DNA of 64,000 bases, taken from NCBI GenBank assembly GCA_002352465.1, contig DEIN01000017.1:777-64776 (forward strand), written 5' to 3'. The stretch comes from Patescibacteria group bacterium UBA2773 (GTDB lineage Bacteria; Patescibacteriota; Minisyncoccia; Moranbacterales; DUUL01). Shown here piece after piece: positions 44,723-48,318 of this stretch (its first letter is position 1; each line of letters opens with the position of its first letter). The position numbers were made by a program, and so were the translations under genes. The notes below the pieces were generated by a model. That model ran no database searches and was not told where the DNA came from. It saw only the letters and a program-made list of their open reading frames with translations.

Positions 44723-44738
44723 ACACAAGATGTTGTGC
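44723..44738 (+). promoter_or_regulatory. Candidate NrdR box (16-bp palindrome) just downstream of the -10
   Basis: acacaagatgttgtgc matches the consensus acaCwAtATaTwGtgt at 13 of 16 positions. Confidence 0.45.
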
Positions 44739-44770
44739 TTTTAGGGAAAAATAAAAAATTTAATAAAAAA

Positions 44771-45223
44771 ATGAAATGTCCTTTTTGCAATCATATTGAA
44801 ACTAAAGTTATTGATTCGAGAGATACCAATGATAATAAAACTATTCGGCGGAGAAGAGAATGCGAAAAATGCCAAGCTCGTTTTTCGACTTATGAACAAA
44901 TTGAAGTTTTGAATCGAGTGGTGATTAAAAGAGATGAAAGCAAAGAAGCTTATAATCGGGAAAAATTGGAAAAAAGTATTAAATTAGCGACTAATAAAAG
45001 AATTAAAGGTTCAGATTTACGGCAGTTGATGGATGAAGTTGAAGCGGAAATCAATTGTGATGGAAAGGCAGAAATTATTTCAAAAAAAATTGGAAATATT
45101 GTTTTGAATAATTTAAAGAAAAGGGACCAAGTGGCTTATTTGCGATTCGCTTCAGTCTTTAAATCATTTGGAAGCGGAAAACGTTTTGTGAAAGAGCTCA
45201 ATAAAATTGAAAAAACTAATTAA
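44771..45223 (+). CDS. nrdR: Transcriptional repressor NrdR
   Basis: MKCPFCNHIETKVIDSRD...CEKCQARFSTYE Zn ribbon plus an ATP-cone. Confidence 0.9.
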   Translation: MKCPFCNHIETKVIDSRDTNDNKTIRRRRECEKCQARFSTYEQIEVLNRVVIKRDESKEAYNREKLEKSIKLATNKRIKGSDLRQLMDEVEAEINCDGKAEIISKKIGNIVLNNLKKRDQVAYLRFASVFKSFGSGKRFVKELNKIEKTN

Positions 45224-45269: not shown

Positions 45270-47360
45270 ATGAAAAAACAAAAAAACCTAGGAGTAAAAA
45301 AGAAAATAGTGAAGAAAATCAAAAATAAAAAATTAATTGAAAAGATTATCAAACGTGATGGTTCCATTGTTGAGTTTGATAAAAAGAAAATTAAAGAAGC
45401 GGTCTATAAGGCTTTTCGAGAAGCGGAAGAGGGAAGTTTGAAAGCGGCAGAGAACGTGATGAAAAAGGCGGTTCAGATGTTGAGTAAAAAAGCTCGACCG
45501 GGCTATATTCCCAACATTGAGGAAGTTCAAGACACGATTGAGCAAGTTTTGATGATTTTAGATTTTGAAAAAACTGCCAAGGCCTATATTCTTTATCGAG
45601 ATCAACGAAGCAAATTGCGAAACACCGAACGATCTTTGGATGACGCGGTTGATTTGGTCGATAAATATTTAGGGGAAATAGATTGGCAGGTTAAAGAAAA
45701 TTCCAATATGGCTTATTCCTTACAAGGACTGAATAACTATATTTCTTCAATTGTGAGTGGAAAATATTGGGTGGAAAGAGTTTACCCAAAGTCAATTAAA
45801 CGCGCTCACGAAGAGGGCAATTTGCATATCCATGATTTGGATAAAATTGCTTCTTATTGTTGCGGTTGGGATTTGCAAGATTTATTGACTCAAGGTTTTA
45901 CCGGCGTTTCTGGAAAAGTTTCTTGTAATCCACCAAAGCATTTGCGACCGGCTTTGGGGCAATTGGTTAATTTCTTTTATACTACTCAAGGAGAAGCGGC
46001 TGGGGCTCAAGCAGTTTCAAATTTTGATACTTTGTTGGCGCCTTTTGTTCGATACGATAAATTGGATTATAAGGCGGTGAAACAAGCGATGCAGGAATTC
46101 GTTTTTAATTTGAATGTTCCAACTCGAGTGGGGTTTCAAACTCCGTTTACTAATATTACCTTGGATTTGAATTGTCCCAAGATGTATAAGGATCAAAATG
46201 TTATTATTGGGGGAAAACCGCAAAAAGAAACTTATGGAGATTTTACGCATGAAATGAATATGCTTAATCAAGCTTTTGCCGATGTAATGAGCGAAGGGGA
46301 TGCCACTGGACGAGTTTTTACTTTTCCAATTCCAACCTATAATATTACCAAAAATTTCAATTGGGATGATAAAAATTTAGATAAAGTTTGGCAGATGACT
46401 GCTAAATATGGAATTCCCTATTTTGCTAATTTTGTTAATTCCGATATGGATCCAGAAGATGCGCGTTCAATGTGTTGTCGTTTGCGATTGGATAATCGAG
46501 AACTACATAAACGAATGGGAGGGTTGTTTGGTGCAGCACCTTTGACGGGTTCAATCGGAGTGGTGACGATTAATTTGCCTCGAATTGGTTATTTAGCCAA
46601 AGATAAGGCTGACTTTTTGAAACGATTAGGAAAATTAATGGATATTGCCAAGGAGAGTTTGGAAGTTAAAAGAAAAACGATTGAAGGCTTTACTCAATCA
46701 GGGTTATATCCTTATTCTAAATTTTATTTGAAAGATATTTTTAAACGAAGAGGTACTTATTGGGGAAATCACTTTTCCACGATTGGAACAATTGGGATGA
46801 ATGAAGCTTTGCTGAACTTAATCGGAGAAGACATTACAACCAAGAAAGGCGTTAAATTAGCAGAAGAAATTTTGGTATTTATGCGAGAAAGAATGGTAGA
46901 TTATCAAAAAGAGACTGGCAGTTTGTATAATTTAGAAGCCACACCAGCGGAAGGAACGAGTTATCGGTTAGCATTGAAAGACCAAAATCGATTCCCTAAA
47001 ATGATTTTTGCTAATTCTGATGCCGAAAAAGAAAATGCTACTCCTTATTATACCAATTCTTCTCAGCTACCAGTTGGATTTTCGGAAGATGCTTATGAAG
47101 CGATGGATTTACAAGATAATTTGCAAACTAAATATACGGGAGGTACAGTTTTTCACACTTTCTTAGGAGAAAAAGTGCAAGATATTGAAACGGTAAAATC
47201 TTTTGTGAAGAAAATTGCGCATGGTTATAAGATGCCTTATTTCACAATTTCTCCAACTTTCAGTGTTTGCCCGATTCACGGTTATTTAAATGGTGAGCAC
47301 AAGCAATGTCCGAAATGTTTGATTGAACAGAGTTGTGAGATTTATTCTAGGGTTTTATAA
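45270..47360 (+). CDS. nrdD: Anaerobic ribonucleoside-triphosphate reductase (class III) main body; it ends ...CPIHGYLNGEHKQCPKCLIEQSCEIYSRVL* just before the glycyl-radical Gly
   Basis: N-terminal ATP-cone, NrdD core, C-terminal Zn ribbon. The glycyl-radical motif is cut off after EIYSRV. Confidence 0.8.
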   Translation: MKKQKNLGVKKKIVKKIKNKKLIEKIIKRDGSIVEFDKKKIKEAVYKAFREAEEGSLKAAENVMKKAVQMLSKKARPGYIPNIEEVQDTIEQVLMILDFEKTAKAYILYRDQRSKLRNTERSLDDAVDLVDKYLGEIDWQVKENSNMAYSLQGLNNYISSIVSGKYWVERVYPKSIKRAHEEGNLHIHDLDKIASYCCGWDLQDLLTQGFTGVSGKVSCNPPKHLRPALGQLVNFFYTTQGEAAGAQAVSNFDTLLAPFVRYDKLDYKAVKQAMQEFVFNLNVPTRVGFQTPFTNITLDLNCPKMYKDQNVIIGGKPQKETYGDFTHEMNMLNQAFADVMSEGDATGRVFTFPIPTYNITKNFNWDDKNLDKVWQMTAKYGIPYFANFVNSDMDPEDARSMCCRLRLDNRELHKRMGGLFGAAPLTGSIGVVTINLPRIGYLAKDKADFLKRLGKLMDIAKESLEVKRKTIEGFTQSGLYPYSKFYLKDIFKRRGTYWGNHFSTIGTIGMNEALLNLIGEDITTKKGVKLAEEILVFMRERMVDYQKETGSLYNLEATPAEGTSYRLALKDQNRFPKMIFANSDAEKENATPYYTNSSQLPVGFSEDAYEAMDLQDNLQTKYTGGTVFHTFLGEKVQDIETVKSFVKKIAHGYKMPYFTISPTFSVCPIHGYLNGEHKQCPKCLIEQSCEIYSRVL

Positions 47361-47466
47361 TGAAATGAGGGTCTGCACTAAAAACAAATTATCTTCGAAG
47401 AGTGATTGGAAACAGTTCCATCGAGGGGTTCGAAGTTTTTATATATAATAAATAAAAACAAATAAA

Positions 47467-47703
47467 ATGACAAAAACAATTCCAAAAAATATTGTTTGTA
47501 AAGATTGTGGAAAAAAAATTCAAGCTGGTGATGCCAATGTTGGTTATTGGAAAAAAGAAGATGTTTATCGTTGTGAAAATTGCACTAATAAATTATTTGG
47601 CACTGAAGTGTATTCTAGGATTGTGGGTTATATCCGACCAGTCAAGCAGTGGAATGTGGGAAAATCGGCTGAATTCAACGATCGAGTTATGTTTAAGGCT
47701 TAA
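47467..47703 (+). CDS. Stand-alone NrdD C-terminal module (Zn ribbon plus glycyl-radical motif EVYSRIVGYIRPV..WNVGK..E)
   Basis: 78-aa ORF with CKDCGKK..CENC, then SRIVGYIRPVKQWNVGKSAEFNDR, matching the NrdD glycyl-radical signature (RVxGY..P...WN.GK..E). It lies 106 bp after the main ORF and is flanked by inverted repeats (ggggttcgaa / ttcgaacccc). Confidence 0.6.
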   Translation: MTKTIPKNIVCKDCGKKIQAGDANVGYWKKEDVYRCENCTNKLFGTEVYSRIVGYIRPVKQWNVGKSAEFNDRVMFKA

Positions 47704-47715
47704 ATAGCTAGTTCG

Positions 47716-47750
47716 AACCCCGGGTCTGTTGACTCGGGGTTTGTTGTTTT
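47716..47750 (+). terminator. Hairpin followed by a T-rich run after the nrdD C-terminal module ORF
   Basis: aaccccg-ggtctgttgact-cggggtt followed by tgttgtttt. Confidence 0.5.
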
Positions 47751-47757
47751 GAGATAA

Positions 47758-48318
47758 TCAATACTTTTCTTTCAGATGATTTAAACTTACAATAAATTTT
47801 TGGTTTATTTCTATTGTAAATGGAATTTCAGATTCAAGGCGGGATATTTTTTTTAAAGTCAAAGCTGCCATTGAAAAAATGTTAAGGAAAAAAAGATATT
47901 GGCTATTTTTTAGGTCAATGCTTTTGTGGTTTCTTTCTAATAGAACTTGAAATAAAATTTTTTGAGTTGGTAGCCGCCAATAATTTCCCAGTAAAAAATT
48001 GCTGGGATTAAATTGAAAAGCAAAATGAAGCTTAAATTCAAAAGTGGTATTTAAGAATTTAATATTACCGATGTAATTTTCACAATCGTCTATTTTTTTG
48101 ATAAAAATTAATATTTCGAGCGTTTCCATTAAGAACCTCCTTTTATTTTTATTTTTTAAAAGTCTGCCTAAAAAATATTCATTTGTCAATGAATGAATTA
48201 ATGAAAACCGTCTAAATTGTTTGAATAGCCTTTCAAATAATTTGGATTGTGGTAGAATGGCATTAAGACAAGCAATTTGTCTAGTTTTATTATTAAAATT
48301 GGTTTTATGGAAAATCAA
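47758..48318 (-). CDS. Hypothetical protein (186 aa)
   Basis: Sole long ORF in the 560-bp gap between nrdD and rnc. No recognisable motifs were found, so the coding status is uncertain. Confidence 0.3.
   Translation of the reverse strand: MIFHKTNFNNKTRQIACLNAILPQSKLFERLFKQFRRFSLIHSLTNEYFLGRLLKNKNKRRFLMETLEILIFIKKIDDCENYIGNIKFLNTTFEFKLHFAFQFNPSNFLLGNYWRLPTQKILFQVLLERNHKSIDLKNSQYLFFLNIFSMAALTLKKISRLESEIPFTIEINQKFIVSLNHLKEKY

What the first reader, a model, noticed from the sequence alone, without database searches (positions are those of the whole stretch)
47300..47750. Class III ribonucleotide reductase with its glycyl-radical module detached into a separate 78-aa ORF bracketed by inverted repeats
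The 696-aa NrdD ORF ends ...CPIHGYLNGEHKQCPKCLIEQSCEIYSRVL*. That is a complete Zn ribbon plus the first residues of the glycyl-radical motif, but it stops before the radical Gly. A separate ORF lies 106 bp downstream (47467–47703). It carries its own Zn ribbon (CKDCGKK...CENC) and an intact motif EVYSRIVGYIRPVKQWNVGKSAEFNDR.

The two share the string (I/V)YSR(V/I), so the C-terminal module looks duplicated. The first copy is truncated and the second is stand-alone. The small ORF is flanked by ~11-bp inverted repeats (gaggggttcgaag at 47423–47435; agttcgaaccccggg at 47710–47724). A hairpin terminator follows it.

Several explanations are possible. One is a two-polypeptide NrdD in which the radical domain is supplied in trans, analogous to the GrcA/YfiD spare part for PFL. 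Another is a small intervening or mobile sequence, recalling the group I intron in phage T4 nrdD, though 106 bp is too short for a canonical intron. The remaining options are a decaying gene or a sequencing error.
Basis: partly seen in the sequence, partly recalled or inferred. Interest (0 to 1): 0.65.

Follow-up and report, generated by a model that had tools for sequence, protein, structure and literature searches.

The report
Stand-alone glycyl-radical subunit for anaerobic RNR
In this Moranbacteria genome the anaerobic ribonucleotide reductase gene stops exactly where its radical-bearing glycine should be, and a conserved 78-residue gene just downstream carries that glycine loop instead; this is the first candidate "spare-part" or detachable radical subunit for a glycyl-radical enzyme other than pyruvate formate-lyase.

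Summary
nrdD (45270-47360) ends ...CEIYSRVL*, with the stop codon at the position of the radical glycine. A 78-aa ORF (47467-47703) carries its own CxxC...CxxC ribbon and an intact EVYSRIVGYIRPVKQWNVGK loop.

It is not a sequencing error, intron, bypass or mobile insert. The small ORF belongs to a large, unnamed family of stand-alone NrdD glycyl-radical modules. All of the 150 best hits among 1.84 billion protein representatives are 42-159 aa.

In Patescibacteria the small ORF sits directly after nrdD, and in 15 species it lies between nrdD and the activase gene nrdG. About half of the species keep a full-length NrdD as well. The others, including this window, have lost the cis loop, in roughly six independent events.

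Truncated NrdD barrels and small ORFs both stay under strong purifying selection (pN/pS about 0.05-0.2). The trans loop tracks lineage-specific residues of its own genome's cis loop.

Viral contigs often carry the module with no NrdD barrel within 4 kb, and the archaeal virus ANMV-1 record has no other NrdD gene at all.

Best reading: the small protein is activated by NrdG and supplies the glycyl radical to NrdD in trans. That makes it a spare part in relatives and an obligate subunit here. All evidence is comparative and no biochemistry exists. The bracketing inverted repeat is probably chance.

The parts
44735..45223 (+). nrdR (NrdR repressor: Zn ribbon plus ATP-cone), first gene of the conserved nrdR-nrdD-small ORF cluster
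   Evidence: Pfam Zn_ribbon_NrdR E 1e-20 and ATP-cone E 4e-16. Same synteny in relatives.
45270..47360 (+). nrdD, class III RNR catalytic subunit, 696 aa. It has the ATP-cone, a complete barrel, the CCGW (197) and MCCR (401) motifs and a CxxH...CxxC Zn site, but it lacks the glycyl-radical loop.
   Evidence: Pfam NRDD 1-539/562, E 1e-183. NCBIfam NF006126 scores 1034 bits against a cutoff of 548. Motifs and pN/pS 0.05 against L003.
47337..47360 (+). Relic of the cis Gly motif, E-I-Y-S-R-V-L-stop. The TAA stop occupies the position of the radical Gly codon of relatives.
   Evidence: Alignment with L003 and L005. Similar independent truncations in L093 (..YSRIVD*) and L179 (..YSEIVS*).
47361..47466 (+). 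Spacer left after deletion of about 25 codons of the cis Gly loop plus most of a 190-370-nt intergenic region present in relatives. It has no ORF and no intron-like RNA.
   Evidence: DNA alignment, Rfam scan, ORF list.
47393..47435 (+). Hairpin (CUUCGAA...UUCGAAG) about 30 nt upstream of the small ORF's ATG, conserved in relatives. Its role is unknown; it may be the nrdD terminator or a regulatory or processing element.
   Evidence: Fold. In 7 aligned sequences, 3 of 6 stem pairs show compensatory changes, although 2 sequences break 5 of the 6 pairs and the covariation term is slightly positive.
47467..47703 (+). Small ORF, 78 aa: a stand-alone NrdD-type glycyl-radical module, proposed to be the trans-acting radical subunit or spare part.
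   Evidence: Pfam NRDD 507-562/562, E 4e-14. dN/dS 0.09 against L003. Family of small proteins.
47497..47583 (+). The small ORF's own Zn ribbon (C11, C14 ... C36, C39).
   Evidence: C11, C14 and C39 are invariant and C36 is conserved in at least 90% of 36 family members. dN/dS 0.12 for residues 1-45.
47605..47685 (+). Glycyl-radical loop EVYSRIVGYIRPVKQWNVGKSAEFNDR. The predicted radical residue is Gly54 (codon 47626-47628).
   Evidence: E47, V48, S50, R51, I52, V53, G54, Y55, R57, P58, W62, N63, K66, E69 and R73 are invariant. The loop is 84% identical to the cis loop of L003 NrdD.
47714..47753 (+). Intrinsic terminator after the small ORF.
   Evidence: 13-bp stem, 8 GC pairs, T-rich tail. 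Free energy -23.8 kcal/mol, z = -4.65.

Best explanation
The window encodes a two-polypeptide class III ribonucleotide reductase.

NrdD(1-696) provides the ATP-cone, the catalytic barrel with the thiyl-radical cysteine, and a Zn site. It lacks the C-terminal glycine loop. The 78-aa protein encoded 106 nt downstream is an autonomous glycyl-radical module made of a Zn ribbon plus the loop.

Proposed mechanism (inferred, not shown):

1. The radical-SAM activase NrdG, encoded elsewhere in this genome, abstracts a hydrogen from Gly54 of the small protein.
2. The activated loop inserts into the empty channel of the NrdD barrel next to the MCCR cysteine.
3. It then serves as the radical store for nucleotide reduction.

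In the nearest relatives the same small gene accompanies a full-length NrdD. There it most plausibly acts as a spare part that re-arms NrdD after oxygen has cleaved the chain at the radical glycine, as GrcA/YfiD does for pyruvate formate-lyase. The window lineage deleted its cis loop, leaving a protein that ends one residue before the glycine at which O2 cleaves NrdD. The small protein therefore became obligatory.
For: Shown by tools:

1. The small ORF is a real, constrained gene. dN/dS is 0.09 against L003, and both the ribbon half and the loop half are constrained. Its A-rich start context resembles that of neighbouring genes.
2. It belongs to a large family of stand-alone modules. There are 51 homologues, nearly all 52-133 aa. 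A profile search gave 4496 hits, and the best 150 are all 42-159 aa. Of the 197 family and fragment proteins retrieved by then, 135 have two CxxC motifs plus SRxxGY.
3. In Patescibacteria it always follows nrdD. Twelve GTDB-representative species have full-length NrdD plus the small ORF, and twelve loci, counting this window, have NrdD truncated after its Zn site plus the small ORF.
4. The cis loop was lost about six times independently. The window is sister to the full-length L003 (100% bootstrap), and L093+L179 form a separate truncated pair (96%).
5. In clades where every member is truncated, the barrels stay under purifying selection with synonymous sites near saturation (pS 0.66-0.78, pN/pS 0.07-0.21). 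The small ORFs do too (0.08-0.39). A class III RNR cannot work without a glycyl radical (established knowledge), so the radical must come from elsewhere.
6. In 15 species the gene order is nrdD, small ORF, nrdG. The nrdG identity was checked in three of them (TIGR02495, 214-219 bits, cutoff 131).
7. The trans loop is most similar to its own genome's cis loop with no closer foreign cis loop in 11 of 13 genomes (three of these tie). Mean identity is 0.88 against 0.74, permutation p < 1e-4. Up to 15 of 25 identical-residue codons nevertheless differ synonymously. This fits both loops sharing one barrel and one activase.
8. Viral contigs carry the module alone. The 38-kb ANMV-1 record has a 144-aa copy and no other NrdD. 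In 62 of 80 IMG/VR loci there is no barrel within 4 kb.
9. A second split type lacks the extra ribbon: NrdD ends after CPKC and an adjacent or overlapping ORF encodes only the loop. It occurs in Dojkabacteria and Thermoplasmatota.
Against: - There is no biochemical, structural or expression evidence.
- No nrdG lies in the 64-kb window. The rest of the genome could not be checked for nrdG, a second nrdD or another RNR class.
- The window's truncation is specific to its lineage, so a recently disabled gene cannot be excluded from sequence alone.
- The truncated NrdD keeps its own Zn site, so how a module with a second ribbon docks is unclear.
- The AlphaFold model of the small protein alone is poor (pLDDT 63) and gave no significant structural match.
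- Loci were retrieved by similarity to the small ORF, so its frequency among Patescibacteria is biased upward.
- The deeper nodes of the NJ tree used to count losses are unsupported.
- Concerted evolution of the cis and trans loops could reflect gene conversion rather than functional co-adaptation.
Confidence: 0.7

Rival explanations
1. The small protein is only a repair part, or has some other accessory role. The window's nrdD would then be a recently inactivated gene, and the organism would get dNTPs from another RNR or from its host by salvage.
For: The truncation is specific to the window lineage; its sister L003 is full length. CPR bacteria are reduced symbionts (general knowledge). No nrdG is present in the window.
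Against: The 696-codon ORF is intact and 95% identical to L003, with pN/pS 0.05. An independent truncation at the same codon persisted through a speciation (L093/L179, pN/pS 0.12). Older all-truncated clades keep constrained barrels.
Confidence: 0.13
2. The small protein is a regulator or decoy. It might compete for NrdG, cap the barrel, or store a radical for another enzyme, rather than being the catalytic radical source of NrdD.
For: It carries an extra, different Zn ribbon that the cis domain does not need. It coexists with intact NrdD in half of the species.
Against: This does not explain how constrained NrdD barrels without a Gly loop would function. The loop residues are as conserved as in catalytic NrdD and co-vary with the cis loop.
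Confidence: 0.1
3. One mature full-length NrdD is made from the two ORFs by RNA splicing (as with the T4 nrdD group I intron) or by translational bypass. In this view the 268 nt between the two YSR(V/I) codon strings are removed or skipped.
For: A direct repeat TGAGATTTATTCTAGGGTT / TGAAGTGTATTCTAGGATT lies 268 nt apart, and tandem stops follow the first copy.
Against: No intron family matches even at E <= 10. The segment that would be skipped encodes the Zn ribbon, which is under purifying selection (dN/dS 0.12). The same small ORF exists behind intact NrdD in relatives. The two ORFs are in different frames.
Confidence: 0.02
4. The split is an artefact (a sequencing or assembly error), or the small ORF is the cargo of a mobile element flanked by inverted repeats.
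For: A 10-nt perfect inverted repeat flanks the small ORF.
Against: The identical locus occurs in ENA and JGI assemblies and the same protein is recorded from NCBI and Logan. No frame of the spacer encodes the missing loop. The arrangement is conserved across many species. The repeat is expected by chance in about 8% of simulations and no comparable repeat occurs in six relatives. There is no tRNA and no transposase or other ORF in the spacer.
Confidence: 0.02

Closest known systems
GrcA/YfiD of E. coli and Y06I of phage T4 (autonomous glycyl radical cofactors, the spare part for pyruvate formate-lyase)
   Same: It is a small stand-alone protein that copies the C-terminal glycyl-radical loop of a large glycyl-radical enzyme. 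It coexists with the full-length enzyme in many genomes. It also occurs on viral contigs without the enzyme, as Y06I does in T4. The expected mechanism is the same: activation by the enzyme's own radical-SAM activase, then insertion into the damaged or loop-less barrel.
   Different: It derives from NrdD, not PFL. None of 36 members match Pfam Gly_radical PF01228, and all match NRDD PF13597. It carries a Zn ribbon instead of GrcA's disordered N-terminus. It is encoded in the nrdD(-nrdG) operon. In many lineages the target enzyme has lost its own loop, so the part is obligatory, a state not known for PFL. A 2026 review states that spare parts are known only for formate lyases (PMC13450708).
Canonical single-chain class III RNR, NrdD plus NrdG (E. 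coli, T4 1H7A, T. maritima 4U3E, P. copri 8P23)
   Same: It has the same barrel, ATP-cone, thiyl-cysteine motif, Zn site and Gly-loop sequence. The closest solved structure is P. copri NrdD (E 4e-38 for the full-length relative).
   Different: In canonical enzymes the Gly loop is the C-terminus of the same chain. Here it is on a separate 9-kDa chain.
Split RNRs: class II NrdJa/NrdJb, and phage Aeh1 NrdA split by the homing endonuclease mobE
   Same: An RNR is assembled from two adjacent gene products, with the C-terminal functional module on the second chain (NrdJb is described in PMC9669993; Aeh1 is from my own knowledge).
   Different: Those are true fissions of one gene. Here the second chain arose as an extra copy, and the first chain later lost its own. 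There is no endonuclease or other ORF in the spacer. The separated part carries the radical itself.
Group I intron in phage T4 nrdD (sunY)
   Same: It is an interruption near the 3' part of an nrdD gene.
   Different: No intron-like RNA was detected. The intervening DNA includes a constrained coding region, and relatives have an uninterrupted nrdD plus the same small ORF.

Membership tests
Class III RNR catalytic subunit NrdD (PF13597 / NF006126 / TIGR02487) | Catalytic barrel matching the NrdD profiles above curated cut-offs | tested here: met
   Pfam NRDD E 1e-183. NF006126 scores 1034 bits (cutoff 548) and TIGR02487 scores 526 bits (cutoff 326).
Class III RNR catalytic subunit NrdD (PF13597 / NF006126 / TIGR02487) | Conserved cysteine motifs of the active site and finger loop | tested here: met
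   CCGW at residue 197 and MCCR at 401 are present. Assigning these motifs to catalytic roles rests on my knowledge of NrdD.
Class III RNR catalytic subunit NrdD (PF13597 / NF006126 / TIGR02487) | C-terminal Zn site | tested here: met
   CPIH...CPKC is present, as three Cys plus one His. Metal binding was not tested.
Class III RNR catalytic subunit NrdD (PF13597 / NF006126 / TIGR02487) | Glycyl-radical motif (SRxxGY) at the C-terminus of the same polypeptide | tested here: not met
   The ORF ends EIYSRVL*, with the stop at the Gly position. The profile match ends at 539 of 562.
[quoted passage not shown] | Small stand-alone protein consisting essentially of a glycyl-radical loop homologous to the C-terminus of its target enzyme | tested here: met
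   78 aa. The loop is 84% identical to the cis loop of L003 NrdD.
[quoted passage not shown] | Sequence membership in the PFL-type Gly_radical family | tested here: not met
   None of the 36 family members match PF01228 at E <= 1. All 36 match NRDD.
[quoted passage not shown] | Radical installed by the target enzyme's activase | not testable with these tools
   Only indirect support is available: the small ORF lies between nrdD and nrdG in 15 species.
[quoted passage not shown] | Restores activity to the oxygen-cleaved enzyme | not testable with these tools
   Indirect support only: loop-less NrdD barrels remain under purifying selection where the small ORF is present.
Split RNR genes (NrdJa/NrdJb; Aeh1 NrdA-a/-b) | One ancestral ORF cut into two adjacent ORFs without duplication, sometimes by an inserted endonuclease gene | tested here: not met
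   Relatives have an intact NrdD plus the small ORF, so the history is duplication followed by loss. The 106-nt spacer holds no ORF. The ribbon-less split in Dojkabacteria and Thermoplasmatota does look like a true fission.
Group I or group II intron | Conserved intron RNA structure | tested here: not met
   No intron family was found in 46800-48300 at E <= 10.
Inverted-repeat-flanked mobile element (MITE or IS) | Terminal inverted repeats that are significant and travel with the element | tested here: not met
   The 10-nt repeat has P about 0.08 under a Markov-1 null, and no comparable repeat occurs in six orthologous loci. Its arms belong to separate local hairpins.

The most novel reading that the evidence does not exclude
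Class III ribonucleotide reductases have their own, so far unrecognised, family of autonomous glycyl-radical proteins. The family is widespread in Patescibacteria. There it ranges from a spare part beside an intact NrdD to the sole radical-bearing subunit of a two-chain enzyme. It is also widespread in archaeal and bacterial viruses, which carry only the module and would use it to keep the host's NrdD running. If so, the glycyl-radical domain of a GRE is a separable, exchangeable subunit, and spare-part repair is not unique to pyruvate formate-lyase.
Probability: 0.6. Interest if true: 0.85.

Novelty: new variant of a known kind. Interest (0 to 1): 0.78.

Why it matters
Reviews from 2021 and 2026 state that spare-part proteins have been shown only for pyruvate formate-lyase. 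Both leave open whether other glycyl-radical enzymes have them (PMC8683613; PMC13450708).

This locus and its relatives supply concrete, clonable candidates for the anaerobic ribonucleotide reductase. They also supply natural controls:

- sister genomes with and without the cis loop;
- a truncation ending one residue before the glycine at which O2 cleaves NrdD;
- operons that include the activase;
- viruses that carry only the module.

If confirmed, the finding would do four things:

- show that the radical domain of a class III RNR can work in trans;
- give a minimal substrate for studying NrdG;
- suggest how oxygen-exposed ultra-small bacteria and viruses protect dNTP synthesis;
- correct the annotation of hundreds to thousands of small ORFs that currently match only full-length NrdD models or carry no name.

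Tried and rejected
- **Rfam scan of 46800-48300 at E <= 10.** Only chance-level hits and no intron.
- **ARAGORN.** No tRNA-like element despite the GGTTCGAA-like arms.
- **AlphaFold2 of the small protein with a 36-sequence alignment.** pLDDT was 63. The Foldseek search of the PDB returned only generic Zn ribbons, none significant.
- **Profile search of PDB sequences with the small-ORF family.** Only spurious C2H2 zinc fingers.
- **Dedicated family models.** None exists in Pfam, NCBIfam or PHROGs. All hits are to full-length NrdD models, and in NCBIfam they fall far below the curated cut-offs.
- **Search for nrdG in the window.** None found; the only CxxxCxxC ORF is 385 aa and was not identified.
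- **Inverted repeat as a mobile-element signature.** Rejected by simulation and by comparison with relatives.
- **Frameshift or readthrough rescue.** Rejected, because the spacer has no coding potential for the loop and the two ORFs are in different frames.
- **Translational bypass or splicing between the two YSR strings.** Rejected, because the skipped part is a constrained coding sequence.
- **Literature searches for a split or spare-part NrdD.** Nothing found.
- **tblastn of the window small ORF against GenBank phages.** No match. The longer family member P0104 did hit ANMV-1.
Full report
**What is in the window**

- nrdR lies at 44735-45223.
- nrdD lies at 45270-47360 and encodes 696 aa.
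- A 106-nt spacer follows.
- A 78-aa ORF lies at 47467-47703.
- A strong intrinsic terminator lies at 47714-47743 (13-bp stem, z = -4.65).

Pfam NRDD covers profile positions 1-539 of 562 in the large ORF (E 1e-183) and positions 507-562 in the small ORF (E 4e-14). NCBIfam identifies the large ORF as a ribonucleoside-triphosphate reductase (NF006126, 1034 bits against a cutoff of 548).

The large ORF keeps its ATP-cone, the CCGW and MCCR cysteine motifs and a CxxH...CxxC Zn site. It ends EIYSRVL*. Aligned with relatives (EVYSRIVGY), the stop codon falls exactly on the radical glycine.

The small ORF has its own CxxC-x21-CxxC ribbon and an intact EVYSRIVGYIRPVKQWNVGKSAEFNDR loop. In BLASTP only the 32-residue loop aligns with the cis C-terminus of the nearest relative, at 84% identity. 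The two ribbons do not align.

**Not an artefact, intron, bypass or mobile insert**

- The identical locus is present in ENA and JGI assemblies, and the same protein is also recorded from NCBI and Logan. These may derive from the same sample.
- No frame of the spacer encodes the missing loop, and the two ORFs are in different frames. No indel can restore a continuous gene.
- Rfam finds no intron even at E <= 10. ARAGORN finds no tRNA-like element.
- The inverted repeat is real as a 10-nt perfect match. A repeat that long arises in about 8% of Markov-1 simulations. Six orthologous loci show no comparable repeat (longest 6-9 nt, null mean 7.6).
- The upstream arm of the repeat is the 3' half of a local hairpin (47393-47435). 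That hairpin recurs in relatives, and 3 of its 6 stem pairs show compensatory changes. Two of the 7 aligned sequences break most pairs, so the support is modest. The downstream arm is the 5' half of the terminator.

**What relatives show**

The small ORF has 51 homologues in the 5.8-billion-protein collection. Nearly all are 52-133 aa, a few of them being contig-end fragments of full-length NrdD. A profile search of 1.84 billion representatives gives 4496 hits, and the best 150 are all 42-159 aa. Of the 197 family and fragment proteins retrieved by then, 135 carry two CxxC motifs plus the SRxxGY motif.

No dedicated model exists in Pfam, NCBIfam or PHROGs. The NrdD 90%-identity cluster is annotated Candidatus Moranbacteria.

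Syntenic loci (LigB/Memo, nrdR, nrdD, small ORF) fall into two states.

- **State 1: full-length NrdD with its own loop, plus the small ORF.** This includes L003 (NrdD 95% identical to the window), L005, L094, L095 and eight further GTDB species.
- **State 2: NrdD truncated after its Zn site, plus the small ORF.** This includes the window, L093, L179, L008/L013/L181, L010/L018, L015/L016/L020/L028, L022/L029 and L049.

So the module was not detached here. The small ORF was already present, and the window lineage deleted about 25 codons of the cis loop together with most of a longer spacer.

Trees of the NrdD barrel place the window as sister to full-length L003 (100% bootstrap). L093+L179 form a separate truncated pair (96%). 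Across the clade the cis loop was lost roughly six times. That tree is NJ and its deep nodes are unsupported. The two losses in the window's subclade both end the ORF within one codon of the glycine (..SRVL*..SRIVD*..SEIVS*) but have different downstream junctions. In L020 the tail EQSSTVYLKVVMAD* is a decayed relic of the motif.

**Evidence that both genes function**

- Small ORF, window against L003: dN/dS is 0.09 overall, 0.12 for the ribbon half and 0.06 for the loop half.
- Truncated window NrdD against full-length L003 NrdD: pN/pS is 0.05.
- In clades where every sampled member is truncated, so the state is old, barrels show pN/pS 0.07-0.21 with pS 0.66-0.78. Their small ORFs show 0.08-0.39.

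A class III RNR cannot turn over without a glycyl radical (established knowledge). A loop-less barrel that has been maintained for that long must therefore obtain the radical from another chain.

Within genomes that have both copies, the cis and trans loops are 82-100% identical in protein over 33 residues. Up to 15 of 25 identical-residue codons nevertheless differ synonymously. The trans loop has no closer foreign cis loop than its own genome's in 11 of 13 genomes, three of them ties (0.88 against 0.74, permutation p < 1e-4). It is often closer to that cis loop than to orthologous trans loops. Under a single old duplication with independent drift, own and foreign comparisons should be equal. 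The excess indicates concerted evolution, through either co-adaptation to one barrel and one activase or occasional gene conversion.

**Genomic associations**

In 15 Patescibacteria species the order is nrdD, small ORF, nrdG. The nrdG identity was confirmed in three of them (TIGR02495 NrdG2, 214-219 bits against a cutoff of 131). The window's subclade has RNase III downstream instead, and no nrdG lies in the 64-kb window.

Viral records carry the module without the enzyme.

- The 38-kb ANMV-1 archaeal virus record has a 144-aa "anaerobic ribonucleoside triphosphate reductase" CDS. It is 62% identical to family member P0104, and the record has no other NrdD.
- In an IMG/VR scan, 62 of 80 loci have a small stand-alone loop ORF, 12 with a ribbon and 50 without. 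None has an NrdD barrel within 4 kb.
- The same tblastn finds the barrel at E = 0 in most of the loci that do carry a full-length NrdD, so the detection is sensitive.

A second, ribbon-less split also exists. There NrdD ends after CPKC..., and an overlapping or adjacent ORF encodes only MKK..CEVYSRVVGY.... It occurs in Dojkabacteria and Thermoplasmatota.

**Most likely mechanism (inferred)**

1. NrdG generates a radical on Gly54 of the 78-aa protein.
2. The loop inserts into the NrdD barrel beside the MCCR cysteine and acts as the radical store.
3. Where NrdD is full length, the small protein would replace the loop after O2 cleaves the chain at the radical glycine. This cleavage is known for E. 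coli NrdD Gly681 (my knowledge; Sun et al. 1996 is cited in PMC8683613).
4. The window's NrdD(1-696) ends one residue before that glycine, so it closely resembles the product of that cleavage. Here the small protein would be obligatory.

Open points remain. It is unclear how a module with its own ribbon docks on a barrel that keeps its Zn site. The location of nrdG in this genome is unknown. The role of the conserved hairpin upstream of the small ORF is also unknown.

**Comparison with known systems**

The closest functional analogue is GrcA/YfiD with T4 Y06I, the spare part for PFL. The small ORF works like it on paper but is not a member of that family: none of 36 members match Pfam Gly_radical, and all match NRDD.

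It also differs from GrcA in three ways. It has a Zn ribbon. It is encoded in the nrd operon. In many lineages it is the only copy of the loop.

It differs from the split class II NrdJa/NrdJb (PMC9669993) in arising by duplication and loss rather than by fission, and in carrying the radical itself.

The 2021 PFL spare-part paper and a 2026 GRE review both say spare parts are known only for formate lyases, and both leave the question open for other GREs. Seven literature searches found no description of a split or spare-part NrdD. The library searched is incomplete.

**Caveats**

- All evidence is comparative.
- Sampling was biased toward loci that contain the small ORF.
- The window's own truncation could be recent.
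- The rest of the genome was not available.
- Structure prediction of the isolated module was uninformative.

I put 0.7 on the trans-acting radical subunit or spare-part reading for this locus.

Noticed in passing
L003:3263-3400, L094:2223-2360, L096:478-620 (absent from the window): Relatives with full-length NrdD share a conserved block of about 135 nt immediately after the nrdD stop, with internal hairpins. It has no Rfam match. The block is part of what the window lineage deleted.
   Followed up: partly
window 47393-47435; also L003, L005, L093, L095, L179: A conserved hairpin lies about 30 nt upstream of the small ORF's ATG. Its stem shows compensatory changes (CTTCGAA/TTCGAAG, CCTCGA/TCGAGG, CCTTGA/TCAAGG), it has a conserved GGGG in the loop, and it is usually followed by TTTATATATA. 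It could be the nrdD terminator, a processing site or a regulator.
   Followed up: partly
L010, L018, L014-L029, L070 and many proteins: Many small glycyl-radical ORFs, some cis NrdD tails and the truncated NrdD of L010/L018 end in CC, CxC or CGC. This recalls the C-terminal redox cysteine pair of class I and II RNRs. The window's small ORF lacks such a tail.
   Followed up: no
L031, L035, L071, L077: A second kind of split NrdD exists without an extra Zn ribbon. The large ORF stops shortly after CPKC, and an overlapping or adjacent ORF of about 45-55 aa encodes only the Gly loop. It occurs in Dojkabacteria, a Thermoplasmatota archaeon and one unclassified MAG.
   Followed up: partly
L097/L098 (ANMV-1 virus KP703175.1, 25525-25959) and 62 IMG/VR loci (L099-L178): Viral contigs frequently carry a stand-alone NrdD-type glycyl-radical ORF with no NrdD barrel nearby. 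In ANMV-1 it is annotated as a 144-aa anaerobic ribonucleoside triphosphate reductase.
   Followed up: partly
L183 and L184 (JGI metagenome contigs): These NrdD proteins have an extension of about 140 aa after the glycyl-radical loop. The extension contains a CDKC motif that looks glutaredoxin- or NrdH-like, suggesting a fused reductant domain.
   Followed up: no
L113 (IMG/VR): The NrdD barrel matches in separate tblastn pieces roughly 1 kb apart. This suggests inteins, introns or homing-endonuclease insertions.
   Followed up: no
L179:3001-3243 and L180:1942-2172: Two 78-aa-type small ORFs have a drifted motif, (A/S)RVVGF(I/L)TPV in place of SRIVGYIRPV. L179 sits behind a truncated NrdD. L180 is not next to nrdD at all.
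   Followed up: no
window 47758-48318 (- strand): A 186-aa ORF lies convergent with the small ORF and has no Pfam annotation in the called genes. The corresponding position in relatives holds different, unannotated minus-strand ORFs, so this slot of the locus is variable.
   Followed up: no
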